Below, one piece after another: positions 818 through 52,558 of a stretch of 64,000 nt of DNA (positions are counted from its first letter, which is position 1; every line of letters begins with the position of its first letter). Origin of the DNA: Alphaproteobacteria bacterium (lineage in GTDB: Bacteria > Pseudomonadota > Alphaproteobacteria > UBA8366). Where the stretch lies: the NCBI GenBank assembly GCA_028281325.1, contig JANQKC010000024.1, positions 79,474 through 143,473 of the forward strand. The letters are read 5' to 3'. The notes under the pieces were generated by a model, which worked only from the letters and a program-made list of their open reading frames with translations, was not told the DNA's origin and did not search any database. Both the position numbers and the translations under genes were made by a program.

Positions 818-1771
818 ATGACTGACCATATGGATGGATTGGATTTCGCCGTCGCTCATGACGAGCCGATCCGATACCGCGATCGAATAAGTACCTATTA
901 TCAGACGCTTGGATACGGCAAGCCGTACCGCTGGGCGCAGTATGCCGACGTGCCGTTCACGCCGTTGCAACGGCCGCTGTCGGACAGCCGGGTCGCGCTG
1001 ATCACGACCGCCGCCCCCTACCAGCCCGACAAGGGCGATCAGGGGCCGGGCGCGCCGTATAACGCCGCCGCGAAGTTCTACCGCGTCTACTCGGACAGCA
1101 CCGACAGCGATCCGGACCTGCGGGTTTCCCATATCGGGATCGACCGCAAGCACACCACGGCCGAGGACATGAACACATGGTTCCCGCTCAAACAGCTTCG
1201 GCGGCTGGCGGCGGAAGGCCGGATCGGCGAGGTCGCGCCGCGCTTCCACGGCGCGCCGACCAACCGCAGCCAGAAGACGACGATCGAGCAGGATTGCGTC
1301 GATATCCTGGCGCGGGTGCGCGAGGACGAGGCCGACGTCGCGGTCATTGTCGCCAATTGACCGGTGTGTCACCAGACCGTGAGTCTGGTCGCACGGCATC
1401 TCGAAGCGAACGGCATCCCGACAATCGTCATGGGATGCGCCAAGGATATTGTCGAACACGCGGGCGTGCCGCGCTTCCTGTTCAGCGATTTTCCGCTCGG
1501 CAACGCCGCGGGGCGGCCGAACGACGTGGAGTCGCAGGCCTTCACGATGGAACTCGCCCTGACGGTGCTGGAAACCGCGCCGGGGCCGCGGACCACGGTG
1601 CAGTCGCCGCTGCGCTGGAGCGACAGTCCCGATTGGAAGCTGGATTTCAGCAACATCAGCCAGCTTTCCGACGAAGAGATCGCGCAGCGCAAGCGCGATT
1701 TCGACAAGGTCAAGGAAGTCGCCAAGGCGCGCCGCGCCGAAGACGGCTTGAAGGTCGACGCCGCCGAATAG
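818..1771 (+). CDS. Selenoprotein B family (glycine/sarcosine/betaine/D-proline reductase component B-like). In-frame TGA at 1358..1360 is read as selenocysteine (U-P-V-C)
   Basis: ORFs 818..1360 and 1364..1771 are in the same frame, separated only by TGA plus one codon. Both halves resemble GrdB/PrdB-family proteins (SRVALITTAAPY; GIPTIVMGCAKDIV). A hairpin follows the TGA immediately. Confidence 0.55.
1365..1395 (+). other. Putative bacterial SECIS hairpin. Stem is ACCAGAC/GTCTGGT (1371..1377 pairs 1383..1389) with loop CGTGA; it extends by a TGTGT/GCACG lower stem containing G-U pairs
   Basis: A perfect 7-bp inverted repeat with a 5-nt G/U-containing apical loop lies 18-22 nt downstream of the in-frame TGA. 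That distance is typical for SelB-binding elements. Confidence 0.4.
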
Positions 1772-1869
1772 CGGCGCATTTTACGTCATGAACCCGCCGC
1801 GCGCTTCCGATGGCGTGCGGCGGGTTTCCCCATCTCTGTAAACCTACCAAACGTAAAGAGACAAATGAC

Positions 1870-3078
1870 ATGAGTGCTGCGCTCCCCCTGGCTGGAATTC
1901 GGGTCCTCGATATCGGGCAGCTCATCGCGGGGCCGTTCGGCGCCACGATGCTCGGCGATTTCGGGGCCGAGGTGATCAAGGTGGAGCAGCCGGGCGTCGG
2001 CGACGCGTTGCGCGGCACGCCGGTGGACGGCAAGGCCAACCGCTCAACCAACTGGATGGTCGAAGGCCGCAACAAGAAATCGATCACTCTTAACCTGCGG
2101 GTCGATGCGGGGCAGGCGATCCTGAAGGAACTGGTGCGCGACGCCGACGTGCTGTTCGAGAATTTCACCCCCGGCACGCTGGAACGCTGGAACCTCGGGT
2201 GGGAAGACCTACGCGCCATCAATCCGAAACTGATCATGGTGCGCGTCTCCGGCTACGGGCAGGTCGGGCCGTATTCGAAACGCGCGGGCTATGACCGGAT
2301 CGCGCTCGGCTTCTCGGGCTACATGTATCCGACCGGCTTTCCCGACCGATTTCCGGTTCGGCCCGCTTTCCCGACGGCGGATTACAACACCGGCGCGTTC
2401 GGCGCGATGGCGGCGATGTTCGCGTTGTATCAGCGGGACGCCCAGCCGGACGGCGGCGAGGGGCAGATGATCGATCTGGCGCTGTACGAGCCGACCTTCC
2501 GCATCACCGCGAGCATGATGACCAACCACGCCAGGACCGGCGAGGTGCGCGAGCGCATCGGCAACCGCAACCCCACCTTCTCGCCCGCCGGCACCTTCGA
2601 AACCAAGGACGGCCGCTATGTGCAGATCGCCGCGGGCGGCGACAAGGTCTGGGCGCGCCTCGCCGAGGCGATCGGCCGGCCCGACCTAGTCGAGGACGAA
2701 CGCTACGCCCGCAGCCGCGCCCGGATCGAGCGCGCCGACGAATTGGAACAACTCCTGGCGGATTGGGTTGGGCAGCATGACTATTCGGAGGTCGAGGAGC
2801 GGCTGGTCCCCGCCAACGTGCCCTTCGGCGGGATCTACACGGCGGCGGACATCGCGGCCGATCCGCACTACGAGGCCCGCGACAACGTGATCACCGTGGC
2901 GGACGACGACGAAGGCGAGATCACCATGCCCGGCATCTTCCCGAAACTCGCCGCCACGCCGGGACGGGTGGACCATGCCGGCCCGCCGCTCGGCCAGCAC
3001 AACGCGGAAATCTATGGCGGCCTGCTGAAGAAGAGCGACGCCGAATTGGCCAAGCTGGCCGAGGACGGCGTGATCTGA
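1870..3078 (+). CDS. CoA-transferase family III (CaiB/BaiF-type)
   Basis: Strong family signature (GIRVLDIGQLIAGPFGATMLGDFGAEVIKVE ...). ATG at 1870 is preceded by aaagag. Confidence 0.8.
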   Translation: MSAALPLAGIRVLDIGQLIAGPFGATMLGDFGAEVIKVEQPGVGDALRGTPVDGKANRSTNWMVEGRNKKSITLNLRVDAGQAILKELVRDADVLFENFTPGTLERWNLGWEDLRAINPKLIMVRVSGYGQVGPYSKRAGYDRIALGFSGYMYPTGFPDRFPVRPAFPTADYNTGAFGAMAAMFALYQRDAQPDGGEGQMIDLALYEPTFRITASMMTNHARTGEVRERIGNRNPTFSPAGTFETKDGRYVQIAAGGDKVWARLAEAIGRPDLVEDERYARSRARIERADELEQLLADWVGQHDYSEVEERLVPANVPFGGIYTAADIAADPHYEARDNVITVADDDEGEITMPGIFPKLAATPGRVDHAGPPLGQHNAEIYGGLLKKSDAELAKLAEDGVI

Positions 3079-3947: not shown

Positions 3948-4559
3948 TTACGCGCCCGAGGCGTTCGCCAGCGCGCGGTCGAGGAAGTCGAGCCGGTCCT
4001 GGCCCCAGAACAACTCGCCCTCGAAGACATAGGTCGGCGCGCCGAACACGCCGAGTTCTTCCACCTCGTCGGTGTTGCGCCGGTATTCCGCCACGACCGG
4101 GTCGCTCTTCTCGATGGCGATCAGCTCCGCGCCGTCCATGCCGTTCTCGTCGGCGATCGCCTTGCGGGTTTCCGGCAGCGCCACATTGCGTTCCTCCCAC
4201 CAGATGGCGCGCAGGATCGCATGCGACAGGCGCAGCGCGTCCAGCCCCAGCTGCTGCGCCGCGATCACCGTGTGGCCCGGCGTCTTGTTGTCCTTGGGCG
4301 GGTAGAAGCGTGGCTTCAGGTTCAGCGGCATGCCGAGATGTTTGCTCCAGCGCGCCAGCTCGACGCGGTGATAATCCTGGCGCGGCTGCGGCCTGGTCAG
4401 GATCGGGATGCCCCCGGTCTTCGGCGCGACCTCCTGGAAGTCATACGGCTTGAGGATGATCCGCGCGTGATGCCGCCGCGCGATCTCGACGATACGCGGC
4501 CCGGCGAAATACGCCCAGGGCGAGGAAAGGGAGTAGTAGCAGTCGACGGTGAGGGGCAT
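3948..4559 (-). CDS. 2-hydroxychromene-2-carboxylate isomerase family (DsbA-like thioredoxin fold)
   Basis: MPLTVDCYYSLSSPWAYF N-terminus and C-terminal GAPTYVFEGELFWGQDRLDFL match the family. The longer ORF to 4667 is probably an upstream extension. Confidence 0.7.
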   Translation of the reverse strand: MPLTVDCYYSLSSPWAYFAGPRIVEIARRHHARIILKPYDFQEVAPKTGGIPILTRPQPRQDYHRVELARWSKHLGMPLNLKPRFYPPKDNKTPGHTVIAAQQLGLDALRLSHAILRAIWWEERNVALPETRKAIADENGMDGAELIAIEKSDPVVAEYRRNTDEVEELGVFGAPTYVFEGELFWGQDRLDFLDRALANASGA

Positions 4560-4848
4560 AGTTGATCCGGAATTGGGTGGCGAGGATTTCATGATGGGGA
4601 AAAAGCGAATGAGAGGACAGTCGAATTTATTTGGCGCGCGCATGCGGGACGCCCCGATTACCTGCATCCCATGGCCACAGTTAGATGGTCTCCGGCACGC
4701 TATAATTTCGGCTGGTTGATGGCATTCGACCCAGTGCTTCCGGTGCGGCCATCGATGGCCAATACTCTGTTTACGTGTAAGGCTTTGGGTTTCAACTGGT
4801 TTTGGGCTTCGCTACGGTCACCATCCAAACTCCGCCGGGATTGGTAAA

Positions 4849-5889
4849 TTGAACGAAGAAATAACCGAAACATCACCGACAAGAACATCCAACGACCCGA
4901 TTTGGCCACCGCTGCCAGTCGGTCGAATAGACTGTTACTCTCGCTTGTGGCAACTAGAACTTTGGCTTCGCGAGCTTGTGTATGTGGAACTAAAGTCTCG
5001 ATACGGGGGTCAATGGACGCAGCAGATCGTTGGAGCCAGTATTTATGCCCAAAAGGCTGACAGAAGACTGACACATATGCCAACGCGAGAGCGGAGGCCG
5101 CTAAGTTACATCTCGTTTGATTCCCTGGTCAGGACAATAAGCAGACGTCGGCACCTATTTGCACCTTACCTCCCTATACGTTCGATCTGGGATGCCAAGC
5201 TAGATGAGGTGCGCCAAATCCGGAACCGTGTGGCCCACTTTCGACAGGGAAACGATGGGGATCTTCAGCGCGTCGATCAGCTATTAACTGATATTGACCC
5301 GGGGATTTGGCGCTTTTGCACCTCATACAATGATCATTTCCCAATTCTTCCTCCGAGTCGGGAGAAAGTTATAAAACAATTTATTGAACTGGATCCCTTC
5401 CCGTGGAGTCAGGTAGGTGACGGAGCATGGTCACGTGTCGGTATGGCCAGCCCCGATATGTTGTTAAGTGCGAATATTGAAGTGATTAGGCGACCGTGGC
5501 TTCGAGCGAAGTATCAAGGGCAAGTCGCCGGAAAATACGGATATCTTTTTGATATTAATATTCATGCAAGACAAAACAGGGTTTTCGAATATAAGAATTT
5601 TCTCAAAAACACTACTCATATTCACGATAGATGCTGCCATATTTTGCTCGATTCGTTCGGTACGACGATACGTGCGACATTGCCCTCCGTTTTGGGTGCT
5701 GCACAGATAACGGACACTGTTAACACGCTTATTGAGATGGGTAGGAGTGCGCTTAGACCGTCTCAAACTTTGCTGGAGATAAATAGGGTCGATTCATTAG
5801 CTAAAGACTGGCCCGAGTATGTCCTAGGTCCGGACCACCCGTTCTCTTTTCTCGGCCCAGATATGCCGTGCAAAATTTTCAGCATCTAA
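4849..5889 (+). CDS. HEPN-domain protein (Swt1-like, R-x4-H motif RNRVAH at 5221..5238) with an uncharacterised C-terminal half
   Basis: 346-aa ORF in the low-GC island with TTG start. It carries the canonical HEPN RNase motif R-N-R-V-A-H-F. The start codon is uncertain. Confidence 0.5.
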   Translation: MNEEITETSPTRTSNDPIWPPLPVGRIDCYSRLWQLELWLRELVYVELKSRYGGQWTQQIVGASIYAQKADRRLTHMPTRERRPLSYISFDSLVRTISRRRHLFAPYLPIRSIWDAKLDEVRQIRNRVAHFRQGNDGDLQRVDQLLTDIDPGIWRFCTSYNDHFPILPPSREKVIKQFIELDPFPWSQVGDGAWSRVGMASPDMLLSANIEVIRRPWLRAKYQGQVAGKYGYLFDINIHARQNRVFEYKNFLKNTTHIHDRCCHILLDSFGTTIRATLPSVLGAAQITDTVNTLIEMGRSALRPSQTLLEINRVDSLAKDWPEYVLGPDHPFSFLGPDMPCKIFSI

Positions 5890-6079
5890 GTGAATGCCGA
5901 TGTAATGATCAGCAGGCCGTTTTGGTGCTATTTCACTATGAAAAAATTGAATGCTGTAGCTGACCGAAAATTACGATGTCTTTGATAGTTGTTAGGACAA
6001 AGAAATTGTCTATTTGCAATAAGTTAAGGGTTGAGATGCAGTGTCATCCTGACTTGTATTGACCCGTAGATTCGACTGC

Positions 6080-6559
6080 TCACCTTAGGCCTGCCGCGTC
6101 CAACTGTCGTAGCAACAACGATGCGAGTGCTAGATGATCCAAGCAAGTGTCCGGATCGTCCGTCATTCCACTCGTATGCCCTCTCGGGTTTCGGATGCCC
6201 AGCATTGCGCCTGCGAACAAGAACTTGAAACCCTCTTGTTCATCCTTTTCAGACCTTGTCATCCCTGGATTTAGTGACACTTTTGGCGAACTTCCTCCGA
6301 GGGCGCTCATCATCAACTTGGTACCGTGGCTCGATGCTCCGGAGATACGCTGTATTTCTTCATCAACAAATTTGAAGGCCTCAAAAGTTGCTTGTGCACA
6401 GTGGCCATTATCAAATAGTCGCCTAACATCGTTCGGAAGGTCTGTATGGAGATTTCGCTCGTCAAAGGAATGTGCACTCGAGGGCCTGTCTACTCCCGCT
6501 TCAGTAAAGCGGTGCGCATTTCTTGCGATTCTTTCGAAGTCTTCGAAGTTACTCGCCAT
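6080..6559 (-). CDS. Hypoth_Ymh/TIGR02391-like HEPN protein (R-x4-H motif RNPRGH at 6176..6193)
   Basis: 159-aa ORF with the AMLGIRNPRGH motif. It overlaps the upstream gene by 11 nt, so they form an operon. Low GC. Confidence 0.5.
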   Translation of the reverse strand: MASNFEDFERIARNAHRFTEAGVDRPSSAHSFDERNLHTDLPNDVRRLFDNGHCAQATFEAFKFVDEEIQRISGASSHGTKLMMSALGGSSPKVSLNPGMTRSEKDEQEGFKFLFAGAMLGIRNPRGHTSGMTDDPDTCLDHLALASLLLRQLDAAGLR

Positions 6560-7226
6560 CGATTAGGTTTTTTCGAATACTTCGGAAGATCCTGTCATAT
6601 GTTTTTTGATCACCATCAGCCGGTAGGTTGACCTCTATACGAACAGTAAGTCCCACTCGGTGTTCTGGTTTCTCGGTTGTGCCAGTCGTATCTTTCTTTG
6701 ACTTCACAGATGCTGTGACCCGTTTCTTAGAGGATCTATCCGCACCCTTTTTCGATACCGGCCTGCGCTGATTGGTCTCTCGTGTTATTGGTACTTCCGC
6801 GTGACCTGAAAGTGCAGCGAGGTAGGTGAAAGTCCCAGCCTGTCTGGTTCCAACAATCTCGCTCGAATGATCTGAAGTGCGGAAGAACTGAGCTAAACTC
6901 GATCGATCCATATTCCACGCGTCGTCACCATGTAATTCAAATAGTTCCTCGTAAGCGGTCCGCACAATTTTCTCGAACTCTTTCTGAAACTCCTCGTCCT
7001 TGTGTTGAATGAAAGCGTTCGCGCATTCATCAACCTTCCTGCCTTCCTCATCAACAATGCCGAGGAATTTCAGCACATTGATGACGTAGCTTTCATTCTT
7101 CGGTGCCACGCCAAGCTTGCGAAGGGTTTCAGCTGTCACCTCTTGGGGAAAACTTCGACGCCGAAGGTGGTCGATCGTCTTTACCAGAGGGCCTGCGGAA
7201 GCTACGTACGGATACTTGTTTGCCAT
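6549..7226 (-). CDS. DUF5343-like protein, upstream partner of the HEPN gene
   Basis: N-terminus MANKYPYVASAGPLVKTI...FPQEVTAETLRKLG resembles DUF5343 from memory. The C-terminal half is a Lys/Ser/Thr-rich low-complexity tail. Confidence 0.45.
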   Translation of the reverse strand: MANKYPYVASAGPLVKTIDHLRRRSFPQEVTAETLRKLGVAPKNESYVINVLKFLGIVDEEGRKVDECANAFIQHKDEEFQKEFEKIVRTAYEELFELHGDDAWNMDRSSLAQFFRTSDHSSEIVGTRQAGTFTYLAALSGHAEVPITRETNQRRPVSKKGADRSSKKRVTASVKSKKDTTGTTEKPEHRVGLTVRIEVNLPADGDQKTYDRIFRSIRKNLIDGE

Positions 7227-7619
7227 TATACGCTTCGCCTCTATCTAGCACCCATGCTTCGTGTGTTTAGGCAGCCGAACATAGGTAGTATTGTAACATT
7301 ATAAGATTTACTCTCTTTTTGATTGCATAACTCAATTTTAGGCAGAGTGACAAATCCAATCTACTATTTTTAATGTGTAATCAAAGCTCTATGGACGATA
7401 CGGAAAATTAGTGTTGACGATCAGCATATTTGAATCGATAGAAATCTAATAATTACAATATGTTAATAGTAATTCTTAGTTGTATATTTGCTTATTTATC
7501 GGTCGACCTAGCAGATTTTGAAATCGCATTCTCCGAGATTCTCTGCACTATTTGCAGCGACACCGAATCACTAGAACGCTAAATTTCGCACAACAATAGA
7601 CACTTCTGGGTGGGGAAGA

Positions 7620-32920: not shown

Positions 32921-32994
32921 TCTGGATGGGAGGACTCGAACCTCCAACAGCTGAGTTAAAAGCTCAGAACTCTAACCAATTGAGCTACATCATG
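32921..32994 (-). tRNA. tRNA-Lys(UUU)-like sequence with a defective acceptor stem (possible pseudo-tRNA)
   Basis: T arm GGAGG-TTCGAGT-CCTCC, anticodon arm CTGAG-CTTTTAA-CTCAG and D arm GCTC...GAGT are all present. Acceptor pairs 2-71 and 3-70 mismatch. The 5' end overlaps the CCA of the adjacent tRNA-Met. Confidence 0.4.
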
Positions 32995-33067
32995 GAGCCG
33001 ATGACGGGAGTCGAACCCGCGGCCTGCGGATTATGATCCGCCGCTCTACCATCTGAGCTACATCGGC
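32993..33067 (-). tRNA. tRNA-Met(CAT), elongator-like
   Basis: Reads GCCGATG-TA-GCTC-AGATGGTA-GAGC ... GCGGG-TTCGACT-CCCGT-CATCGGC-T-CCA, with a perfect acceptor stem. By my reading the anticodon loop is 6 nt (TCATAA) rather than 7. Confidence 0.6.
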
Positions 33068-39502: not shown

Positions 39503-39784
39503 GCAGAGTTCCTTCGGTCGAAAATTAGCGGTTGCAAATGGCAATTCGGAATCACCGCCCTAGTTTTTTTGTCCAGGGGAGGACTATTATGGTCCGGACG
39601 ACTTTCCGATTGCACTGTCTATAAGCATTGGTTCGGTCAATTGCACGGGCGAACCGCTCCGGGCGCAAGGCCATGCGCGCGCATTCCTACAGTTGAGGCG
39701 CGCTGGTTTTGTATTGGCCGCCTCTGCTGCTATAGAGATTCCAATTGAAGCATGAAGCACAACCGACGAGGGAGAGTACCAACG

Positions 39785-40642
39785 ATGCTTAAGAGATTCT
39801 TCGCCGCAATGATCCTGATCTTCGGGTTCGGGTCCGCCGTCGCGGCCGAAACATTCGTCTTTACCGCGATCCCCGATCAGGACGAAACGCGCTTGAAAGA
39901 GCGTTTCGGAAAGATCGCGGACTATCTGTCCAAGGAATTGGATACGACGGTCAAATACGTGCCGGTGAAAAGCTATGCGGCGGCGGTGACGGCCTTCAAG
40001 AACAACCAGGTGCAGCTCGCCTGGTTCGGCGGCCTGTCCGGCGTGCGCGCGCGGGCGTCGGTGCCGGGCTCGGTGGCGATCGCGCAAGGCTATGAAGACC
40101 AGTTCTTCGAAACCTATTTCATCGCGAACGAAAAGGCGGGGCTCTCCCTGACCAAGGAGTTTCCGAAGGAAATTGCCGGCAAGACCTTCACCTTCGGGTC
40201 GAAGGGGTCCACGTCCGGCCGTTTGATGCCCGAGTTCCATATCCGCCGAAACTTCGGCAAGACGCCCGACAAGGTGTTTGAGCGCGTCGGTTTCAGCGGC
40301 GATCACTCGCGCACGATCGCGTTGGTGCAGTCCGGCGCCTATCAGGTCGGCGCGGTGAATTACAAGGTTTGGAAAAAGGAATTGGATGCCGGCAAGATCG
40401 ATCCCAAAAAGGTTTCGATCATCTGGCGGACGCCGCCTTATCCCGACTATCAGTGGAGCATTCGCGGCGACGTGGATCAGAAATTCGGCGCGGGCTTTCA
40501 GAAGAAGGTGACGGACGCCTTATTGAATATGAAGGACCCGGCGCTGCTCGAGTCCTTTCCGCGCAGCAAGTTCATTCCGGCGACCAACGACGACTACAAG
40601 ATGATCGTGGATACCGGAAAGGAAATCGGTCTGATCGACTGA
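39785..40642 (+). CDS. ABC transporter substrate-binding protein, PhnD/SsuA-like (putative selenium oxyanion-binding)
   Basis: Signal peptide and PhnD-like fold; GAGGGAGAG SD. It heads an operon that ends in the selD fusion. Confidence 0.7.
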   Translation: MLKRFFAAMILIFGFGSAVAAETFVFTAIPDQDETRLKERFGKIADYLSKELDTTVKYVPVKSYAAAVTAFKNNQVQLAWFGGLSGVRARASVPGSVAIAQGYEDQFFETYFIANEKAGLSLTKEFPKEIAGKTFTFGSKGSTSGRLMPEFHIRRNFGKTPDKVFERVGFSGDHSRTIALVQSGAYQVGAVNYKVWKKELDAGKIDPKKVSIIWRTPPYPDYQWSIRGDVDQKFGAGFQKKVTDALLNMKDPALLESFPRSKFIPATNDDYKMIVDTGKEIGLID

Positions 40643-41298
40643 TGGCGCTTGTCGACCTCACCCTCGCGTCCGCGGGCTATAACGGCGCGAACGTCCTGCA
40701 CGACGTGTCGTTGTCGATCGAACGGGGCGAGAAGGTCGCACTGGTCGGGCGGAGCGGGGCTGGCAAGTCCACCCTGCTTCGGCTGATCTACGAGCGTATC
40801 GACGGCGAGGCCGCGATGGTTCCGCAGGAACTCGGCCTCGTCCGTGCGCTCACCGTGTTTCACAACATCTATATGGGGCAGCTCAACTGCCACAGCACCT
40901 GGCGCAACGTGATGAACCTCGTGCGCCCGATGCAGCAGGAAGTCGAAAACATTGGCGGCATCGTGAAGACGCTTGGCCTGGAGAACGAGATGTTCTCCGC
41001 TGTCGGCGCGTTGTCCGGCGGACAGCAGCAACGGACGGCCGTGGGCCGGGCCCTGTATCAGCGGGCAGACATTCTGCTCGGCGACGAGCCCGTCTCGGCG
41101 GTGGACGAGCATCAATCCCGGTCAATTCTGGAAAGCATCGCCGACGCGAAACCCACGGTCATTCTGGCGATGCATGACATCGATCTCGCGCTCGCCTATT
41201 CCAACCGCGTCATCGGGTTGGATGCCGGGCGCATCGTGATGGACGAGTCGACCGCCGGCATGAAGGCGTCCGACCTCGACCTTCTCTATCGAGGCTGA
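40642..41298 (+). CDS. ABC transporter ATP-binding protein (PhnC-like)
   Basis: Walker A GRSGAGKST and LSGGQQQR signature. Its start overlaps the SBP stop by 1 nt (TGATG). Confidence 0.8.
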   Translation: MALVDLTLASAGYNGANVLHDVSLSIERGEKVALVGRSGAGKSTLLRLIYERIDGEAAMVPQELGLVRALTVFHNIYMGQLNCHSTWRNVMNLVRPMQQEVENIGGIVKTLGLENEMFSAVGALSGGQQQRTAVGRALYQRADILLGDEPVSAVDEHQSRSILESIADAKPTVILAMHDIDLALAYSNRVIGLDAGRIVMDESTAGMKASDLDLLYRG

Positions 41299-41303
41299 GC
41301 GGC

Positions 41304-42800
41304 ATGCAGGCGGTTTGGCGTTACTCTCCGGCGGTTCGGACCAGCCTGATATTCGTCGGTATCGCCTTTCTCTGCCTGATCTTCGCCGACATTTCGATTT
41401 CGACGGTGAACCCGTGGACCGAGATGGGTCGTTTGCTGCTGGGAGTCGTGACCCCGGACTTCCTGGCCACGGAAAGTCTGGTCAACGCCCTGGTGCAGAC
41501 CGTCGCTTTCGCCATCCTGGGCGTCGTCGTTGGAAATATCGCCGGGTTTTTCCTGGCGCTGATTTTTCATTATCGCGCGGTGCGCGTCGGCTGCGCCTTC
41601 GTGCGCGCGATCCATGAGCTGTTCTGGGCGCTGATCTTTTTGCAGATTTTCGGCCTGTCGCCGATCACCGGCATCCTCGCCATCGGGATTCCCTATGCGG
41701 GGATCATCGCGAAGGTCTATGCCGAGATTTTGGAGGAAGCCGACACCACGCCGCTGAAGGCGGTGCCGCCGGGCAGCACGGCGACCTCCGTCTTTATCTT
41801 CGTGCGGTTGCCGGACGTCTGGGCGCATTTCAAGACTTACTCGCTCTACCGGCTGGAATGCGGCTTGCGGTCGAGCGCGGTGCTCGGGTTCGTCGGCCTG
41901 CCGACGTTGGGCTACTACCTCGAAACGGCGTTCCGCCAAGGCCATTATTCCGAAGTCTCCGCGCTGCTGATCCTGTTCTATATTGTGATCGCGAGCATGC
42001 GGGTGTGGATGCGCCGCAACCTGCTGCCGCTCTATATCCTGGGCGCAATCCTGCTGTTGCCGTGGGGCGGACACGAAATCTACGCGGACAACATCGTCCG
42101 GTTCTTCACCCAGGACATCGTCCCGCAGCCGTTGCGCGACGGCGTGTTCGAGCCGGGCGCGCTGTCCGGGTTCGGCGACTGGCTGTCGGTATTGTTCGTC
42201 GAACAGGCGTTGCCCGGTGCGGTCGACACGCTGCAACTGACGATGATCGCGCTGGTCGCGACCGGCGTCCTGGCGCTGGTCTTTTTTCCGCTGCTGTCGC
42301 CGCTGTTCTTCGGCCGCGGCGGCCGTCTCGGCGGGCATGTGTTTTTGGTGGTCGTGCGATCGACGCCGGAATACATCCTGGCCTATGTCTGCCTGCAGCT
42401 TTGGGGGCCGTCGATGTTGCCCGCGATCATCGCGTTGTCGCTGCACAACGGCGCGATCATCGCGCATCTGATTGGCCGCTACACCGAACATATGAAGGTG
42501 CGGGTCGATGCGCCGCGTGGGCTCAATCTTTACTTTTACGAATCGGTGCCGCGTGTCTATGGGCAGCTCCTGGCGTTCCTTTTCTATCGCTGGGAAGTGA
42601 TTTTACGTGAGACCGCAATTCTCGGCATGTTGGGCATCGCGACGCTCGGCTTCTATGTGGACAGCGCCTTTGCGGATATCCGGCTGGACCGCGCGCTGGT
42701 GCTGATCCTGTTCACGGCGGCGCTGAATATCTGCGTCGATGCGTTGTCGCGGCATATCCGGGCGCGGCTCCGTCTCAAGACGACCATCGAACATGGGTGA
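41304..42800 (+). CDS. ABC transporter permease, duplicated PhnE-like (two permease domains in one 498-aa chain)
   Basis: Two consecutive six-helix PhnE-like halves. Confidence 0.75.
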   Translation: MQAVWRYSPAVRTSLIFVGIAFLCLIFADISISTVNPWTEMGRLLLGVVTPDFLATESLVNALVQTVAFAILGVVVGNIAGFFLALIFHYRAVRVGCAFVRAIHELFWALIFLQIFGLSPITGILAIGIPYAGIIAKVYAEILEEADTTPLKAVPPGSTATSVFIFVRLPDVWAHFKTYSLYRLECGLRSSAVLGFVGLPTLGYYLETAFRQGHYSEVSALLILFYIVIASMRVWMRRNLLPLYILGAILLLPWGGHEIYADNIVRFFTQDIVPQPLRDGVFEPGALSGFGDWLSVLFVEQALPGAVDTLQLTMIALVATGVLALVFFPLLSPLFFGRGGRLGGHVFLVVVRSTPEYILAYVCLQLWGPSMLPAIIALSLHNGAIIAHLIGRYTEHMKVRVDAPRGLNLYFYESVPRVYGQLLAFLFYRWEVILRETAILGMLGIATLGFYVDSAFADIRLDRALVLILFTAALNICVDALSRHIRARLRLKTTIEHG

Positions 42801-45070
42801 TCCTCGTGCAATCGACCACACCGATCCTTAAAGACCTCGTTCTCGTCGGCGGCGGACACAGCCATGTCGGCGTGCTGCGGTCCTTCGGCATGAAGCCGAT
42901 CCCGGGCGTCCGCCTGACGGTCCTCTGCCGCGACGTGGACACGCCCTATTCGGGGATGTTGCCAGGGTTGGTCGCGGGGCATTACACCTTCGAGGAGACC
43001 CATATCGATCTCGGCCCGTTGGCCCGCTTCGCCAAGGCGCGCTTCTACAACGACGATGTGATCGGCATCGACCCGCGTCAGCGGTTGGTGATCTGCAAGG
43101 ACCGCCCGCCGGTCTCCTACGACATGCTGTCGATCAACGTCGGGTCCGCGCCCGCGACCTGGGAGACGCCGGGCGCCGACGGCAACGTAGTGCCGGTCAA
43201 GCCGATCAACCGGTTCGTCGCGCATTGGGAACGCCTGCGCGAACGCATCCTGTTGCGCGAGGACCCGGTGCGGATCGGTATCGTCGGCGGCGGCGCGGGC
43301 GGCGTCGAACTGCTGCTCGCCATCCAGTACCGGTTGAAGAGTCTATTGGCCGGGCAAGGGCGCACCGACGCGCATTTGGAGTATCACCTGATCAGCGAAG
43401 AGTCGGACATCCTGACCACGCATAACCCGCTGGTCCGGTCCAAGTTCCGGCGCATCTTCGCCGAGCGCAGCATCAACTTCCACGCGGATACGCAGGTCGA
43501 GTCCGTGACGCCGGGTAAGGTCCAGGCCGCGAACGGCGACACCATTGCGTTGGACGAAATCCTGTGGGTGACCCGGGCGGGCGCCGCGCCGTGGATCAAG
43601 GAATCCGGACTGGCGGTTGACGAATACGGTTTTATGCAGGTCGGCGACACGCTGCAATCGACCTCGCATCCGGAAATCTTCGGCGCGGGCGATATCGCGG
43701 CGATGGTCAATCATCCGCGCCCGAAAGCGGGCGTCTTCGCGGTGAGGCAAGGGCCGCCACTGACCCGAAACCTGCGGCGTATGCTGGTCGGCAAGTCCGC
43801 GCGGCCGTTCACGCCGCAGCGGGAATGGCTTAGCCTGATCAGTACCGGCGATAAATACGCGGTTGCCTCGCGATCCAAATGGTCGGTCGAGGGCAAGCTG
43901 GTCTGGCGCTGGAAGGACTGGATCGACCAGCGCTTCATGAAGAAGTTCAACGAATTGCCCGAAATGGAGACGGAGGAAAAATCGGACGTGCCGCGCGGCC
44001 TGGCGGGCGACGAGGTGATCAAGGAAATCTCCGCCGTCGCCATGCGCTGCGGCGGCTGTGGCGCGAAGGTGGGTGCCACGGTGTTGCAGCGCGCGCTGTC
44101 GCAGCTAAAGCCGGTGGCGCGCGACGACGTGTTGATCGGCCTGCACGAACCGGACGACGCCGCGGTGGTCGAGGTGCCGCCCGGCAAGGTGATGGTGCAT
44201 TCGGTCGATTCGTTCCGCGCCATCGTCGACGACCCGTATCTGTTCGGCCGCATCGCCGCCAACCACAGCCTCGGCGATATCTATGCGATGGGCGCGGACC
44301 CGCAGACCGCGCTCGCCATCGCCACCGTGCCCTACGGACTGGAGGAGAAGGTGGAGGACGTGTTGTCCCAGATGCTGACCGGCGCGATGGAGGTCTTGCA
44401 GGAATCGAACACCTCGTTGGTCGGCGGTCATACCAGCGAAGGCGCGGAGCTGTCGCTGGGCTTTTCCGTGAACGGCCTGATCGACCGAGAGAAGGTCTTG
44501 CGCAAGGGCGGCATGCAGTCGGGCGACCGGCTGGTGCTGACCAAGGCGATCGGAACCGGCACGCTGTTCGCTGCCGACATGCGGCTGAAGGCGAAAGGCC
44601 AGTGGATCAAGGGGGCGCTCGCCTCGATGCTGCTGTCGAACTACGAGGGCGCGCACTGCCTGTCCGACCACGGCGCAAATGCATGCACCGACGTGACCGG
44701 CTTCGGGTTGTTGGGGCATCTGGTCGAGATGACCAAACCGTCCGGCGTCGACGTGGAACTCGATCTCGGCGCGATCCCGTATCTGGACGGCGCGCGGGAG
44801 ACGGTGGCGGCCGGCATCACCAGCACCTTGCAACCGCAGAACCTGCGGCTCCGCCGCGCCATTTCCAATATCGCAGAGGTCGGCGACGACCCGCGTTTTC
44901 CGTTGATCTTCGATCCGCAGACTGCCGGCGGCTTGCTGGCCAGCGTGCCGCAGGACCGGGCCGAGGATTGCGTCGGCGCGTTGCGCGATCTGGGATATGA
45001 CCGGACGGCGATCATCGGCACCGTGTTGCCCGAGGGCAACCGGTTGGAACCGATTACGGTGCGGGCGTAG
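42797..45070 (+). CDS. selD: Fusion of a pyridine-nucleotide-disulfide oxidoreductase ('N-terminal to SelD' domain) with selenide,water dikinase SelD (Cys-type); the senC equivalent
   Basis: N-terminal LVLVGGGHSHVGVL FAD/NAD fold. The C-terminal half from about 43980 is canonical SelD (AMRCGGCGAK at 44042..44068, with TGC/TGT and no TGA). It overlaps the permease stop by 4 nt (ATGA). Confidence 0.8.
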   Translation: MILVQSTTPILKDLVLVGGGHSHVGVLRSFGMKPIPGVRLTVLCRDVDTPYSGMLPGLVAGHYTFEETHIDLGPLARFAKARFYNDDVIGIDPRQRLVICKDRPPVSYDMLSINVGSAPATWETPGADGNVVPVKPINRFVAHWERLRERILLREDPVRIGIVGGGAGGVELLLAIQYRLKSLLAGQGRTDAHLEYHLISEESDILTTHNPLVRSKFRRIFAERSINFHADTQVESVTPGKVQAANGDTIALDEILWVTRAGAAPWIKESGLAVDEYGFMQVGDTLQSTSHPEIFGAGDIAAMVNHPRPKAGVFAVRQGPPLTRNLRRMLVGKSARPFTPQREWLSLISTGDKYAVASRSKWSVEGKLVWRWKDWIDQRFMKKFNELPEMETEEKSDVPRGLAGDEVIKEISAVAMRCGGCGAKVGATVLQRALSQLKPVARDDVLIGLHEPDDAAVVEVPPGKVMVHSVDSFRAIVDDPYLFGRIAANHSLGDIYAMGADPQTALAIATVPYGLEEKVEDVLSQMLTGAMEVLQESNTSLVGGHTSEGAELSLGFSVNGLIDREKVLRKGGMQSGDRLVLTKAIGTGTLFAADMRLKAKGQWIKGALASMLLSNYEGAHCLSDHGANACTDVTGFGLLGHLVEMTKPSGVDVELDLGAIPYLDGARETVAAGITSTLQPQNLRLRRAISNIAEVGDDPRFPLIFDPQTAGGLLASVPQDRAEDCVGALRDLGYDRTAIIGTVLPEGNRLEPITVRA

Positions 45071-45100
45071 GAACCTCGTTCCGTTATTGCCGTTTGTATT

Positions 45101-45212
45101 GACCTCACCCTGAGCGTGTCGAAGGGCCTTCGGAGCGTGGCATGCTTCGACAGGCTCAGCATGAGGGTGGTGCATGCCTAGCTAAGTTATTACCGCGAAA
45201 GCGGGAATCCAG
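45101..45212. repeat. Mosaic palindromic intergenic repeat (REP/RIME-like), copy 2, with B' inverted module, B module (catgcttcgacaggctcagcatgaggg at 45141..45167) and A-type hairpin (ccgcgaaagcggg)
   Basis: Shares modules with 10309..10492. It lies between convergent selD-fusion and senB-like genes. Confidence 0.6.
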
Positions 45213-45218
45213 TATTCG

Positions 45219-46184
45219 CTACCCAAGAATGTGCAACAAATCCCGCCACGCCGCTTCTTCCCGCTCCGGCTTGAACAGGTCGGCGCGCGCGCGGCATTGG
45301 CGCGTTAGCGTCTTCAGGAAATTCCGATCGTGTTCGACCCTGTCCAGGCAGGCCGCCAGGGCGGCGGTGTCGCCGACCGGGAAAAATCCGGCATAGTCGT
45401 CGCCCAGCAGCCCGACCGATCCTGAAATGTCCGATGCGATGACCGGGACGTCCGCGGCGACCGCTTCGGACAGCACGTTCGCGCCGCCCTCCATGATCGA
45501 ACTCAACACCATCGCGTGGGACGAATCGAAAAGCCGGCGTACCTGCCATCCTTGCGCTTCGCCGCGCCAGTCGTATCGGAGATTGGCGGCCATCTCCTGC
45601 CGCGCGCGCTCGGCCCAGTTCCCGTCATGCGCCTTGCCCAGATGCACGATCCGGACCCGCGAATCGCTCGGCAGCAACCGCGCGGCCTCGGCGGCACGCA
45701 ACGGATCCTTCTCGTCGCGTAGATGACCGATCACACAAATATCGACGGTGCGCCGCGACGGGCGGCGGGTCCGGTTGAGCGGCAAGGCCGATTGGTGGAT
45801 GACATGAAGCTTTTCGTGGAACCGATCCGGTATCTCCCGGTGCACGAGGCCGTGCAGGCACACCAGCGCGTCGGCGAGTTCCATGGAGCGATGGGTCTCG
45901 TCCGGATGGCTGCGTTGAAACTTGTAGATGTCGGTTCCCGCCAGCAGGACGATCAGCGGGCGATCGGGGTACCGCTCGTGGAAACGGATGATCGATCCGG
46001 CGCTGCGCCAGGCATGGACGGCGATCATCGCGTCGACCGATTCGTTCTCGTACTCGGTCGCGACGATCACCTCATGACCGAGACGGCGCAGGATATCCTG
46101 CCACCGCACCGCCGTCCTTCTGTTGCCGTCGCGCGACTGTTTGCCTGCGGGCGTGACAAGGCTAATCTTCAAGCCGGTCCGCAT
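45219..46184 (-). CDS. senB: Small glycosyltransferase of the selD-associated family (selenosugar synthase SenB-like)
   Basis: About 320-aa GT-B-like protein (MRTGLKISLVTPAG...). Genomic context is SelD on one side and an EgtB-like gene on the other. The start is uncertain, with a TTG at 46172 possible. Confidence 0.55.
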   Translation of the reverse strand: MRTGLKISLVTPAGKQSRDGNRRTAVRWQDILRRLGHEVIVATEYENESVDAMIAVHAWRSAGSIIRFHERYPDRPLIVLLAGTDIYKFQRSHPDETHRSMELADALVCLHGLVHREIPDRFHEKLHVIHQSALPLNRTRRPSRRTVDICVIGHLRDEKDPLRAAEAARLLPSDSRVRIVHLGKAHDGNWAERARQEMAANLRYDWRGEAQGWQVRRLFDSSHAMVLSSIMEGGANVLSEAVAADVPVIASDISGSVGLLGDDYAGFFPVGDTAALAACLDRVEHDRNFLKTLTRQCRARADLFKPEREEAAWRDLLHILG

Positions 46185-46198
46185 TAGGTGGTTTGCCC

Positions 46199-47512
46199 AT
46201 GACTGAACCCGTCCCCACGTCCCGCTTGATCGACATGATGACGAGCGCGCGCCGCCGCACGCTGGAATTGGTTCAAGGGCTGACGCCGGACCAGTTCATT
46301 GGCCCGAAACTGCCGACGCTTAATCCGTTGATCTGGGAAATCGGGCATGTCGGCTGGTTCTATGAAAATTTCATCTTGCGGCGATTGTACAACCAAGAGC
46401 CGATGCTCGCGACCGGAGATTCGCTTTATGACTCGATCGCAATCGCGCATGAAACGCGGTGGGATTTGCCGGTCCTGCCGTTGAACGAAATCCTTGCCTA
46501 TATGCAGGACGTGCAGGACGCGTTGATCGACCGCTTGGGCGACAAGGATATGGCGGACGAACGGCACAGTTATCTCTACCAGTTCACCGTCTTTCACGAA
46601 GACATGCACACCGAGGCCTTTACCTGGGCGCGGCAGACATTGGGATATCAGACGCCGGTCTTCGAGGGCGGCCCGGTCGATCGCGCTGCGCCGCAGACCG
46701 GGTCATTGTCCGGCGATGTGGCGATCATGGGCGGCACCTTTCGGATGGGTGCGGAGAAGAGCGCGCCGTTTCTGTTCGACAACGAGAAATGGGCGCGTCC
46801 CGTAACCGTCGCACCGTTCAAGATGGCGCGGGCGCCGGTTACCAACCGCGCATTTGCCGAATTTGTCGCGGAGGGCGGTTACCGAACCGAATCCTTCTGG
46901 GACGCCGATGGCTGGGCCTGGCGGCAAGACGCGGTGGTGGAACATCCGGTCTATTGGGTGCCGGACGAGCATGGCGGTTGGGGCGTTCGGCAATTCGATC
47001 GCGTCGTCGACCTGCCGCTCGACCAGCCGGTCATCCACGTCTGCTGGCATGAAGCGAACGCCTACTGCCGCTGGGCGGGCCGGCGCTTGCCGACGGAAGC
47101 GGAATGGGAGTTGGCGGCGACGACGGTGCCGGAAACCACCGACGGCGTTTTGCAGAAGCGCCGGTATCCGTGGGGCGACGAGGCGCCGACGCCGGACCGT
47201 GCCAATCTCGATGGGTTCGCGCTTGGCTGCGTCGATGTCGCGGCATATCCGGCGGGCGACAGCGCCTATGGCTGCCGTCAGATGATCGGCAATGTCTGGG
47301 AATGGACGCAGGACGTCTTCAAGCCGTTTCCGGGTTTCGCGCCCGACGATTACAAGGAATACTCCCAGCCGCTGTTCGATACGACACGGGTCTTGCGGGG
47401 CGGTGCGTGGACGACGCGGGGGCGGATGATCACGTCCCTTTATCGCAACTATTTCGGGCCGGACCGGCGCGACGTTTTCGCCGGGTTCCGGACCTGCGCG
47501 TTGTCCGACTAA
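46199..47512 (+). CDS. senA: EgtB-like C-Se/C-S bond-forming enzyme (DinB_2 N-terminal domain plus FGE-sulfatase domain); selenoneine synthase SenA-like
   Basis: WEIGHVGWFYENFIL and FHEDMHTEAF (DinB_2 His triad), then GGTFRMG, TEAEWELAA, GNVWEWT and RGGAW (FGE-sulfatase fold). AGGTGG SD sits 8 nt before ATG 46199. Confidence 0.65.
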   Translation: MTEPVPTSRLIDMMTSARRRTLELVQGLTPDQFIGPKLPTLNPLIWEIGHVGWFYENFILRRLYNQEPMLATGDSLYDSIAIAHETRWDLPVLPLNEILAYMQDVQDALIDRLGDKDMADERHSYLYQFTVFHEDMHTEAFTWARQTLGYQTPVFEGGPVDRAAPQTGSLSGDVAIMGGTFRMGAEKSAPFLFDNEKWARPVTVAPFKMARAPVTNRAFAEFVAEGGYRTESFWDADGWAWRQDAVVEHPVYWVPDEHGGWGVRQFDRVVDLPLDQPVIHVCWHEANAYCRWAGRRLPTEAEWELAATTVPETTDGVLQKRRYPWGDEAPTPDRANLDGFALGCVDVAAYPAGDSAYGCRQMIGNVWEWTQDVFKPFPGFAPDDYKEYSQPLFDTTRVLRGGAWTTRGRMITSLYRNYFGPDRRDVFAGFRTCALSD

Positions 47513-52513: not shown

Positions 52514-52558
52514 GGCGGTGACTCCGGTCGTTTGGTTTGAGGGGCAGGATGGCGTCAA

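What the first reader, a model, noticed from the sequence alone, without database searches (positions are those of the whole stretch)
1365..1395. SECIS-like hairpin immediately 3' of the in-frame TGA
A perfect 7-bp stem (ACCAGAC/GTCTGGT) with a 5-nt loop CGTGA is extended by a G-U-rich lower stem. The hairpin begins 5 nt after the TGA, and the apical loop lies 18-22 nt downstream. This matches the geometry of SelB-binding SECIS elements (for example E. coli fdhF). A random hairpin at exactly this spot is unlikely.
Basis: seen in the sequence. Interest (0 to 1): 0.55.

Follow-up and report, generated by a model that had tools for sequence, protein, structure and literature searches.

The report
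Selenocysteine insertion hairpin, PrdB-like gene
The hairpin just after the in-frame TGA is almost certainly a genuine bacterial selenocysteine-insertion (SECIS) signal in a PrdB-like selenoprotein gene, a family catalogued in environmental bacteria since 2005, so it is real but ordinary.

Summary
TGA 1358-1360 lies in frame inside one gene (818..1771, PrdB/GrdB-like). It is followed by a 7-bp perfect stem (1371-1377/1383-1389), a 5-nt loop CGUGA (1378-1382) and a weaker lower stem (1365-1369/1391-1395).

On its own the hairpin is only modestly unusual (about 2% by chance). The comparative evidence is what decides it.
- All 120 listed full-length homologues have Cys where the window has TGA.
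- About 114 genomes from several phyla keep the in-frame TGA.
- In 100 unique TGA sequences the hairpin is kept and loop bases G22-U23 never change.
- One stem pair switches C-G to U-A 27-28 times, in many separate clades.
- Cys-codon orthologues picked with the same motif lose the hairpin (4.6 against 6.1 of 7 pairs).
- Those Cys forms also use different synonymous codons. Ser AGT is 14% there and 87% in TGA forms, against an 18% background in the same genes.

The element meets all four published bacterial SECIS criteria, and its register matches real E. coli fdhF (stem-loop at nt 15-31 after UGA). selA, selB and tRNA-Sec are not in the window, but a SelD fusion gene is.

"PrdB, UxxC" selenoproteins with predicted SECIS elements have been published since 2005. 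Verdict: supported, already known, low interest.

The parts
818..1771 (+). PrdB/GrdB-like selenoprotein gene (317 codons, motif N-U-P-V-C-H-Q) read through the in-frame TGA
   Evidence: One frame throughout. Pfam GRDB 22.9 bits against a cutoff of 22; TIGR04483 PrdB 104 bits against a cutoff of 300. Full-length homologues of 310-329 aa align across the TGA with Cys at that position.
1358..1360 (+). In-frame UGA, inferred Sec codon (UxxC motif)
   Evidence: Aligned with Cys in all 120 listed homologues. About 114 genome orthologues keep an in-frame TGA. An identical 180-aa upstream ORF is found in two independent assemblies.
1361..1371 (+). 11-nt spacer between the UGA and the conserved 17-nt stem-loop core (A1371 additionally pairs with U1389 in this window)
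   Evidence: The register is the same as in E. coli fdhF, where the upper stem-loop also starts at nt 15. Pair 14-32 forms in only 41-43% of orthologues.
1372..1388 (+). Conserved 17-nt SECIS core: stem CCAGAC/GUCUGG with loop CGUGA
   Evidence: Pairs 16-30, 17-29 and 20-26 are invariant. Pair 18-28 is G-C or G-U. Pair 15-31 covaries between C-G and U-A. Pair 19-27 is kept in 77-79% of sequences. Folding energy is -7.4 kcal/mol for this core and -9.1 with the A-U pair added.
1378..1382 (+). Apical loop CGUGA with invariant G1379-U1380, the inferred SelB contact
   Evidence: Loops in 100 unique TGA orthologues are CGUGA (81), GGUCA (10), CGUCA (3), CGUGU (3), CGUGG (2) and GGUUA (1), always xGUxx. 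This codon is Val (GUN) in 100 of 100 Sec forms and in only 43 of 118 Cys forms.
1363..1369 (+). 5' side of the lower stem (G1363 plus UGUGU 1365-1369)
   Evidence: MFE structure. Pairs 8-38, 11-35 and 12-34 always form; pairs 9-37 and 10-36 form in about 62-68% of orthologues. GUG at codon 2 is enriched in Sec forms: 69 of 99 against 33 of 103.
1391..1397 (+). 3' side of the lower stem (GCACG 1391-1395 plus C1397)
   Evidence: Same calls. The Ala codon GCA, which supplies A36 to pair with U10, makes up 51% in Sec forms against 10% in Cys forms.
42797..45070 (+). Oxidoreductase::SelD (selenophosphate synthetase) fusion inside a sen (selenoneine) cluster. It is a possible selenium donor for Sec synthesis and is listed as context, not as part of the RNA element.
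   Evidence: tblastn with E. coli SelD gives E = 1.5e-47. TIGR00476 selD scores 300.8 bits against a cutoff of 125, and TIGR03169 scores 498 bits. Its motif RCGGCGAK aligns with E. coli GAGCGCK and keeps that motif's first Cys and its Lys.

Best explanation
The hairpin at 1363-1397 is a bacterial SECIS element. While the ribosome translates the PrdB-like mRNA, the 17-nt stem-loop starting 11 nt after the UGA is free to fold. Its apical part, with the invariant loop bases G22-U23, is bound by the specialised elongation factor SelB carrying Sec-tRNA(Sec). That tethers the factor next to the A site, so that UGA 1358-1360 is read as selenocysteine rather than stop. The ribosome then unwinds the hairpin and translates it as H-Q-T-V-S-L-V. 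The product is a 317-residue protein with a redox U-P-V-C (UxxC) motif.

Shown here: the structure, its register, its conservation with compensatory change only where TGA is present, its decay where TGA has become TGY, and the Sec/Cys pairing in homologues.

Inferred from established knowledge of the E. coli sel system, not tested here: SelB binding, Sec-tRNA delivery and actual selenium incorporation.
For: 1. The TGA is in frame inside one conserved gene, and all 120 listed full-length homologues have Cys there.
About 114 are true orthologues from Alpha-, Beta- and Gammaproteobacteria, Rokubacteria/Methylomirabilota and Chloroflexi. All have conserved coding sequence continuing after the TGA.
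3. Hairpin conservation: 84.3% of cells pair against 24-42% in slid controls, and 0 of 500 shuffles reach the observed pairing or covariation score. RNAalifold finds the same register on its own.
4. Covariation: the synonymous His wobble base (nt 15) pairs with the first base of the codon after Leu (nt 31). Counts are C-G 62, U-A 28, U-G 5 and C-A 5, with Fisher p = 8e-15. In Cys forms the two positions are independent (p = 1.0). Fitch parsimony gives at least 18 state changes on the gene tree, and in 10 of the 14 closest disjoint pairs of sequences that differ at nt 15, nt 31 differs too (C-G against U-A); 2 more keep the pair as a U-G wobble, and 2 contain a C-A mismatch.
5. Codon choice at identical amino acids, Sec against Cys forms: Thr ACC 100% against 51%; Ser AGT among AGY 87% against 14%; Leu YTG 100% against 59% (p = 1e-15 to 1e-22). 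Composition is matched (GC3 0.79 against 0.82), and background AGT/(AGT+AGC) in the same genes is 0.18.
6. Loop G22-U23 is invariant in Sec forms, while the codon supplying it is Val in only 36% of Cys forms.
7. All four published bSECIS criteria are met (PMC13188914): loop of 5 nt, stem of 7 bp, G at loop position 2 followed by U, spacing of 17 nt, MFE of -9.1 to -18.8 kcal/mol.
8. The register is the same as in real E. coli fdhF.
9. TGA is an ordinary stop elsewhere in the window: 21 of 53 selected ORFs end in TGA. So the genetic code is not reassigned.
10. A selenophosphate synthetase gene lies in the same window.
Against: - selA, selB and tRNA-Sec were not found in the 64 kb or in the 8-kb flanks of the orthologues. 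For fragments this short that says little, but it means the Sec machinery of this organism is not demonstrated.
- The SelD found sits in a selenoneine (sen) cluster and may be dedicated to that pathway.
- No Rfam SECIS model matches, even at E <= 10.
- About a quarter of the TGA orthologues, mainly a gammaproteobacterial subgroup reading CAG-UCG-GUC-AGU-UUG, form only 5 of the 7 upper-stem pairs because of a U/U or A/C mismatch at pair 19-27.
- The single-sequence fold statistics are weak for the 63-nt segment.
- The Sec set came from genomes and the Cys set from metagenomes, and the sequences are phylogenetically related, so the exact p-values are overstated.
Confidence: 0.9

Rival explanations
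1. The hairpin is a by-product of protein-level conservation in a GC-rich gene (H-Q-T-V-S-L is conserved) and has no RNA function. The TGA would then be passed by some other means, or would split the gene in two.
For: The stem arms encode strongly conserved residues (HQT and SL) in both Sec and Cys forms. Cys forms still form 4.6 of 7 pairs on average, and 2 of 118 form all 7. The 63-nt fold is no better than shuffles.
Against: At identical amino acids the TGA forms use the pairing codons far more often than the Cys forms or the same genes' own background: AGT 87% against 14% and 18%; YTG 100% against 59%; ACC 100% against 51%. A synonymous site covaries with its pairing partner only in TGA forms. 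Among Cys forms with the same HQTVSL peptide, only 2 of 21 form 7 pairs, against 36 of 80 Sec forms. The downstream ORF has no separate ribosome-binding site, and it stays in frame in about 114 genomes.
Confidence: 0.03
2. The hairpin is functional but independent of SelB. It would be a pausing or read-through-stimulating structure that promotes near-cognate decoding of UGA (Trp or Cys), or an mRNA-stability or attenuator element.
For: The Sec machinery was not found in the window. Downstream stem-loops can stimulate stop-codon read-through in other systems (own knowledge).
Against: The invariant xGUxx loop, the 17-nt stem-loop exactly 11 nt after UGA as in fdhF, and the Sec/Cys pairing in a UxxC redox motif are the specific signature of SelB-type SECIS elements (PMC13188914). 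No T-run follows the hairpin, and no terminator is called there. This gene family is a published selenoprotein family (PMC1088965, PMC2398784).
Confidence: 0.05
3. The TGA is a sequencing or assembly error or a recent nonsense mutation (pseudogene), and the hairpin is coincidental.
For: A single window cannot exclude an error. The closest Cys-form homologue is 77% identical.
Against: The same 180-aa ORF ending at this TGA is present in two independent assemblies. About 114 other genomes have TGA at the same codon with intact conserved sequence downstream. GC3 stays at about 0.83 after the TGA.
Confidence: 0.01

Closest known systems
Bacterial SECIS consensus (bSECISearch model of Zhang and Gladyshev, as summarised in PMC13188914)
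   Same: It lies immediately 3' of an in-frame UGA inside the coding region. It has a 5-nt apical loop, a 7-bp upper stem, G at loop position 2 followed by U, a 17-nt spacing between UGA and the loop, and an MFE well below -7.5 kcal/mol.
   Different: Nothing defining differs. The loop's first and last bases (C and A) cannot pair, whereas the commonest pattern has them pairing.
E. coli fdhF SECIS, the experimentally characterised SelB-binding element
   Same: Counted from the U of UGA, both upper stem-loops span nt 15-31 (17 nt after an 11-nt spacer). Both have a small loop containing G-U: fdhF GGUC at 22-25, window CGUGA at 21-25. Both are extended by an imperfect lower stem reaching back towards the UGA.
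   Different: The sequences are unrelated. The G-U sits one nucleotide closer to the UGA here. The upper stem here is perfect, with no bulged U; the bulged U of fdhF is a SelB determinant in E. coli (own knowledge, not tested here). No Rfam SECIS model matches.
'Proline reductase PrdB' (UxxC, pfam07355) selenoprotein family of marine metagenomes (Sargasso Sea 2005, GOS 2008)
   Same: The Sec motif is the same (UxxC), the Pfam family is the same, and it occurs in environmental Proteobacteria. [quoted passage not shown]
   Different: I could not compare sequences with the published ones because the figures are not held, so identity of the subfamily is inferred from the motif, the Pfam family and the taxonomy. 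The window's source is a GC-rich alphaproteobacterial MAG-like genome rather than a marine read.
Clostridial D-proline reductase PrdB and glycine reductase GrdB
   Same: Homologous fold region, with Sec in a UxxC motif (PMC13188914).
   Different: It scores far below the equivalog cutoffs: TIGR04483 104 against 300, TIGR01917 33 against 602. No PrdA or GrdA partner lies next to it. The recurrent neighbour is instead a family III CoA-transferase. The biochemical function is therefore probably different and is unknown.

Membership tests
Bacterial SECIS element (bSECIS consensus, PMC13188914 Fig. 2 legend) | Located in the coding region immediately downstream of an in-frame UGA | tested here: met
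   UGA is at 1358-1360. The structure spans 1363-1397 inside ORF 818..1771.
Bacterial SECIS element (bSECIS consensus, PMC13188914 Fig. 2 legend) | Apical loop of 3-9 nt and upper stem of 4-16 bp | tested here: met
   The loop is 5 nt (1378-1382). The upper stem is 7 bp in the window, and 6 bp are conserved across orthologues.
Bacterial SECIS element (bSECIS consensus, PMC13188914 Fig. 2 legend) | At least one G in the first two loop positions, usually followed by G or U | tested here: met
   The loop is C-G-U-G-A. The G-U at loop positions 2-3 is invariant in 100 of 100 unique TGA orthologues.
Bacterial SECIS element (bSECIS consensus, PMC13188914 Fig. 2 legend) | [quoted passage not shown] | tested here: met
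   17 nt (1361-1377).
Bacterial SECIS element (bSECIS consensus, PMC13188914 Fig. 2 legend) | Minimum free energy <= -7.5 kcal/mol | tested here: met
   -9.1 kcal/mol for the upper hairpin alone, -17.3 for 1363-1397, and -18.8 for 1355-1400.
Bacterial SECIS element (functional definition) | The UGA aligns with Cys in homologues (Sec/Cys pair) | tested here: met
   All 120 listed homologues carry Cys there.
Bacterial SECIS element (functional definition) | Structure conserved with compensatory changes in TGA orthologues and relaxed in Cys orthologues | tested here: met
Bacterial SECIS element (functional definition) | The host genome encodes SelA, SelB, SelD and tRNA-Sec | tested here: inconclusive
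   A SelD domain is present at 44054-45031, but inside a sen cluster. No selA or selB hit and no tRNA-Sec were found in the 64 kb.
Bacterial SECIS element (functional definition) | Binds SelB and directs selenium-dependent UGA decoding | not testable with these tools
   This needs a gel shift, a reporter assay, 75Se labelling or mass spectrometry.
Rfam SECIS families | Match to a curated covariance model | tested here: not met
   There was no match of any Rfam 15 family to 1300-1460, even at E <= 10.
D-proline reductase PrdB (TIGR04483 equivalog) | Score above the curated equivalog cutoff | tested here: not met
   104.2 bits against a cutoff of 300. This is a homologue, not an equivalog.
D-proline reductase PrdB (TIGR04483 equivalog) | Encoded with the PrdA proprotein and other prd genes | tested here: not met
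   The window neighbours are DUF3047, a family III CoA-transferase, an unassigned 281-aa protein and a DSBA-like protein. A CoA-transferase also neighbours the closest Cys form and at least 37 Sec loci.
Pfam GRDB (PF07355) | Score at or above the gathering threshold | tested here: met
   22.9 bits against a cutoff of 22, matching only residues 38-177. This is marginal.

The most novel reading that the evidence does not exclude
The most novel reading still open has two parts.

First, the host protein may not be a proline reductase at all. It could be an orphan UxxC selenoprotein that works with the adjacent family III CoA-transferase in an uncharacterised reductive pathway of aerobic Proteobacteria, Chloroflexi and Rokubacteria.

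Second, its SECIS may form a distinct class with unusually conserved sequence (core CCAGAC-CGUGA-GUCUGG nearly identical across phyla, and no Rfam model). That class would have spread with the gene and been lost about a dozen times by Sec-to-Cys conversion. In this genome the selenium could come from the sen-cluster SelD fusion, linking selenoneine and selenoprotein synthesis.
Probability: 0.3. Interest if true: 0.35.

Novelty: already known. Interest (0 to 1): 0.15.

Why it matters
Practically, it means the two ORFs 818..1360 and 1364..1771 should be annotated as one selenoprotein gene rather than as two fragments or a pseudogene, and that the organism probably decodes UGA as Sec. The Sec-versus-Cys comparison made here also shows cleanly how an RNA signal embedded in coding sequence constrains synonymous codons and even amino-acid choice (Val rather than Ile at the loop codon), and how that constraint disappears once TGA becomes TGY. 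It does not change what is known about SECIS elements. The family and its SECIS were catalogued in 2005-2008.

Tried and rejected
- **Rfam:** searched at gathering threshold over the whole window, and at E <= 10 over 1300-1460. No SECIS or other RNA family matched the site.
z = -0.54, not informative. Only the tighter 46-nt segment is significant.
- **Solved structures:** sequence search found no relative.
- **Sec machinery:** tblastn with E. coli SelA, SelB and SelD against the window and all fetched loci found only SelD, and only in the window. ARAGORN found no tRNA-Sec. The 625, 350, 445 and 485 aa genes at 25-31 kb, which I suspected by size to be selB, selD or selA, are an STT3-like protein, a malate/lactate-type dehydrogenase, a PstS-like protein and an amidase.
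- **A second in-frame TGA:** the candidate at 52559 on the minus strand (546-aa plus 140-aa ORFs in one frame) is rejected. The AMP-binding enzyme is complete, and a spacer with GGAG and an ATG starts a separate SnoaL-like gene. The other same-frame TGA candidates lie in antisense frames of GC-rich genes.
- **Terminator reading:** rejected, because no T-run follows the hairpin and no site is called there.
- **Pattern-scan false positives:** L076, L079, L106 and L117 were chance matches and L075 carries a frameshift. All were excluded.
- **Literature:** Liu et al. 1998 on the minimal E. coli SECIS is not held, so I verified the fdhF geometry on the fdhF sequence itself.

Full report
**1. What is in the sequence.**

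The TGA at 1358-1360 lies in frame between ORF 818..1360 (180 codons) and ORF 1364..1771 (135 codons). Read through, the product is 317 residues with the motif ...VIVAN-U-PVCHQTVSLVARHLE....

Directly downstream, RNAfold gives these features:
- a perfect 7-bp stem, ACCAGAC 1371-1377 with GUCUGGU 1383-1389
- a 5-nt loop, CGUGA 1378-1382
- a 1x1 C/C mismatch
- a 5-bp lower stem containing two G-U pairs, 1365-1369 with 1391-1395
- a closing G1363-C1397 pair

As a single sequence the hairpin is only moderately unusual. For 46 nt, z = -2.35 (3 of 200 shuffles fold as well). For 63 nt, z = -0.54. A perfect 7-bp stem in SECIS register after a given TGA is expected about 2% of the time in this window.

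**2. The gene.**

The product is a distant member of the GrdB/PrdB superfamily:

| Model | Score (bits) | Cutoff (bits) |
|---|---|---|
| Pfam GRDB | 22.9 | 22 |
| TIGR04483 PrdB | 104 | 300 |
| TIGR01918 | 34 | 65 |

No sequence relative has a solved structure. A search of 5.8 billion proteins gave thousands of full-length homologues. All 120 listed ones carry Cys exactly where the window has TGA, in the motif N-C-P-V-C-H-Q. That is the usual Sec/Cys signature. Gene callers stop at TGA, so Sec forms are hidden from protein databases.

**3. TGA-carrying orthologues.**

A degenerate DNA pattern that requires TGA inside the conserved motif was scanned over one genome per species. After removing four chance matches and one frameshifted copy, about 114 are true orthologues with conserved coding sequence on both sides of the TGA. 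They come from Alphaproteobacteria (Hyphomicrobiaceae, Acetobacteraceae, Stellaceae, Rhodospirillaceae), Gammaproteobacteria, a Nitrosovibrio, Rokubacteria/Methylomirabilota and Chloroflexi/Thermomicrobiales.

The window's own 180-aa ORF is found identically in two independent read-set assemblies. This excludes a sequencing error or a pseudogene.

TGA is also a normal stop for many genes in the window, so the genetic code is not reassigned.

**4. The RNA structure is under selection where TGA is present.**

Positions are numbered from the U of UGA. In 100 unique sequences:
- Pairs 16-30, 17-29 and 20-26 are invariant.
- Pair 18-28 is G-C or G-U.
- Pair 19-27 is kept in 77%.
- Pair 15-31 is C-G in 62, U-A in 28, U-G in 5 and C-A in 5.

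Nt 15 is the synonymous wobble base of the His codon. Nt 31 is the first base of the codon after Leu (G for Val/Ala, A for Ile/Thr). A silent site therefore tracks a replacement site 16 nt away (Fisher p = 8e-15).

The dedicated pair-count tool reports 84.3% of cells paired, against 24-42% with slid partners. It counts 27 double-sided changes at pair 15-31, and 0 of 500 shuffles reach the observed pairing or covariation score. RNAalifold recovers the same register independently.

The analysis used a tree built from protein sequence outside the hairpin. On that tree the pair state changes at least 18 times. In 10 of the 14 closest disjoint pairs of sequences that differ at nt 15, nt 31 differs as well (C-G against U-A). 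Two more keep the pair as a U-G wobble, and two contain a C-A mismatch. The covariation is therefore not one inherited event.

The loop is always xGUxx: CGUGA 81, GGUCA 10, and the rest CGUCA, CGUGU, CGUGG or GGUUA.

The lower stem is less constant. Pairs 9-37 and 10-36 form in about two-thirds of the sequences.

**5. Control: Cys-codon orthologues selected with the same motif.**

Replacing TGA by TGY in the pattern gave 119 usable metagenome orthologues, 118 of them unique.

| Feature | Sec (TGA) forms | Cys (TGY) forms | Source |
|---|---|---|---|
| Upper-stem pairs formed, mean of 7 | 6.1 | 4.6 (p = 2e-21) | |
| Nt 15 and nt 31 | covary (p = 8e-15) | independent (p = 1.0) | |
| Thr codon ACC | 85 of 85 | 40 of 79 | |
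| Ser codon AGT among AGY | 83 of 95 | 9 of 66 | |
| Leu codon YTG | 100 of 100 | 68 of 116 | |
| Ala codon GCA | 51% | 10% | |
| Loop codon is Val (GUN) | 100 of 100 | 43 of 118 | |

In Cys forms the loop codon is often Ile, Leu, Met or Cys instead of Val.

Base composition does not explain these differences. GC3 medians are 0.79 and 0.82. The background AGT/(AGT+AGC) in the same genes outside the hairpin is 0.18 and 0.17. The contrast also persists in the subsets with GC3 >= 0.75.

The closest Cys relative (77% identity) has TGC plus CAU...ACG GUG GCG CUG, and it no longer forms the hairpin. On a joint tree, Sec and Cys forms interleave with about 13 switches, and hairpin integrity follows the TGA state.

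Caveats:
- The two sets come from different collections.
- The tree is rough.
- The sequences are related, so the p-values are inflated.

The direction and size of the effects are nevertheless clear.

**6. Comparison with what is known.**

The published bacterial SECIS consensus requires four things (PMC13188914):
- a 3-9 nt loop and a 4-16 bp upper stem
- a G in the first two loop positions, usually followed by G or U
- 16-37 nt between the UGA and the loop
- an MFE of -7.5 kcal/mol or lower

All four are met here: a 5-nt loop, a 7-bp stem, loop C-G-U, 17 nt, and -9.1 to -18.8 kcal/mol.

I tested the fdhF comparison on the real E. coli K-12 gene. Its Sec codon is codon 140. Its upper stem-loop spans nt 15-31 with loop GGUC at 22-25. 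The window's conserved stem-loop also spans nt 15-31, with loop CGUGA at 21-25. From my own knowledge, untested here, SelB recognises the loop G-U and, in E. coli, a bulged U. This element has the G-U but no bulge. No Rfam model matches.

The gene family itself is already in the literature. 'Proline reductase PrdB' with a UxxC motif (pfam07355) was the third most abundant selenoprotein family in the Sargasso Sea, with 42 sequences. [quoted passage not shown]

The protein is probably not a true D-proline reductase. It scores far below the equivalog cutoff and has no PrdA neighbour. It is instead recurrently adjacent to a family III CoA-transferase, in at least 37 Sec loci, 26 Cys loci and the closest Cys homologue.

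**7. Trans-acting machinery.**

selA, selB and tRNA-Sec were not found in the window or in the flanks of orthologues. For 64 kb that is uninformative.

The window does contain a selenium cluster at 39.7-47.5 kb:
- a putative selenate-binding ABC protein
- a PhnE-like permease
- an oxidoreductase::SelD fusion (TIGR00476 300.8 bits against a cutoff of 125; the first Cys and the Lys of the E. coli GAGCGCK motif are kept)
- SenB
- SenA

SenA, SenB and SenC form the selenoneine pathway, and SenC is a selenophosphate synthetase (bioRxiv 10.1101/2022.04.13.486033). The organism therefore takes up selenium and makes selenophosphate. Whether this SelD also serves Sec synthesis is unknown.

**8. Verdict.**

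The steps shown are the structure, the register, selection on the RNA conditional on TGA, and the Sec/Cys pairing. The steps inferred are SelB binding and selenium incorporation.

The element and its host family are of a known, catalogued kind, so interest is low. The residual novelty concerns the unknown biochemical role of this PrdB-like protein and its CoA-transferase partner, and the lack of a curated RNA model for this very conserved SECIS.

Noticed in passing
window 39752-47512: A selenium-utilisation cluster: a putative selenate ABC substrate-binding protein (TIGR04553, 389 bits), a PhnE-like permease, a 757-aa pyridine-nucleotide-disulfide oxidoreductase::SelD fusion (42797-45070), SenB (45219-46184, minus strand) and SenA (46193-47512). 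This is a selenoneine (sen) biosynthetic cluster, lying about 40 kb from the selenoprotein gene.
   Followed up: partly
window 4560-7575: A segment of about 3 kb with much lower GC3 (0.48-0.50 against about 0.83 elsewhere). It carries a weak HEPN_Swt1-like ORF (4849-5889), a Hypoth_Ymh protein (6080-6559, minus strand) and a DUF5343 protein (6549-7226, minus strand). In the syntenic relative L099 the alignment jumps from window 4559 to 7576, so it looks like an inserted island, possibly a defence or toxin-antitoxin type module.
   Followed up: partly
window 32921-33067 (minus strand): Two tRNA genes lie practically abutting. One is tRNA-Lys(UUU). For the other, ARAGORN could not assign an anticodon. 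Read by eye, its anticodon arm looks like GCGGA-UCAUAA-UCCGC, a 6-nt loop containing CAU, although Rfam scores it as a good tRNA at 62 bits.
   Followed up: no
window 1870-3078, and loci L242/L243 and at least 37 of L001-L119: A family III CoA-transferase (PF02515, 410 bits) lies immediately downstream of the PrdB-like gene. It is adjacent in many Sec-form and Cys-form loci alike, which suggests a functional pair unrelated to classical proline reductase operons.
   Followed up: partly
loci L002, L004, L008, L019, L021, L024, L073, L091, L098, L102, L115 (Gammaproteobacteria, K189A clade): A subgroup of TGA orthologues reads CAG-UCG-GUC-AGU-UUG. This gives a weaker upper stem (U/U mismatch at pair 19-27, G-U at pair 18-28) and a GGUCA loop. 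In some of them RNAfold prefers an alternative helix that pairs the UGA itself (UGACCGG with CGGUCA).
   Followed up: no
window 52136-54199 (minus strand): An AMP-binding enzyme gene ends in TGA and is followed, in the same frame, by a SnoaL-like gene. This mimics an in-frame TGA, but it is an ordinary stop followed by a spacer with GGAG and an ATG.
   Followed up: yes
window 1759-1776: A GC-rich hairpin followed by a T-rich tail (terminator-like) spans the TAG stop (1769-1771) that ends the full-length selenoprotein gene. This fits 818..1771 being one transcription and translation unit.
   Followed up: no
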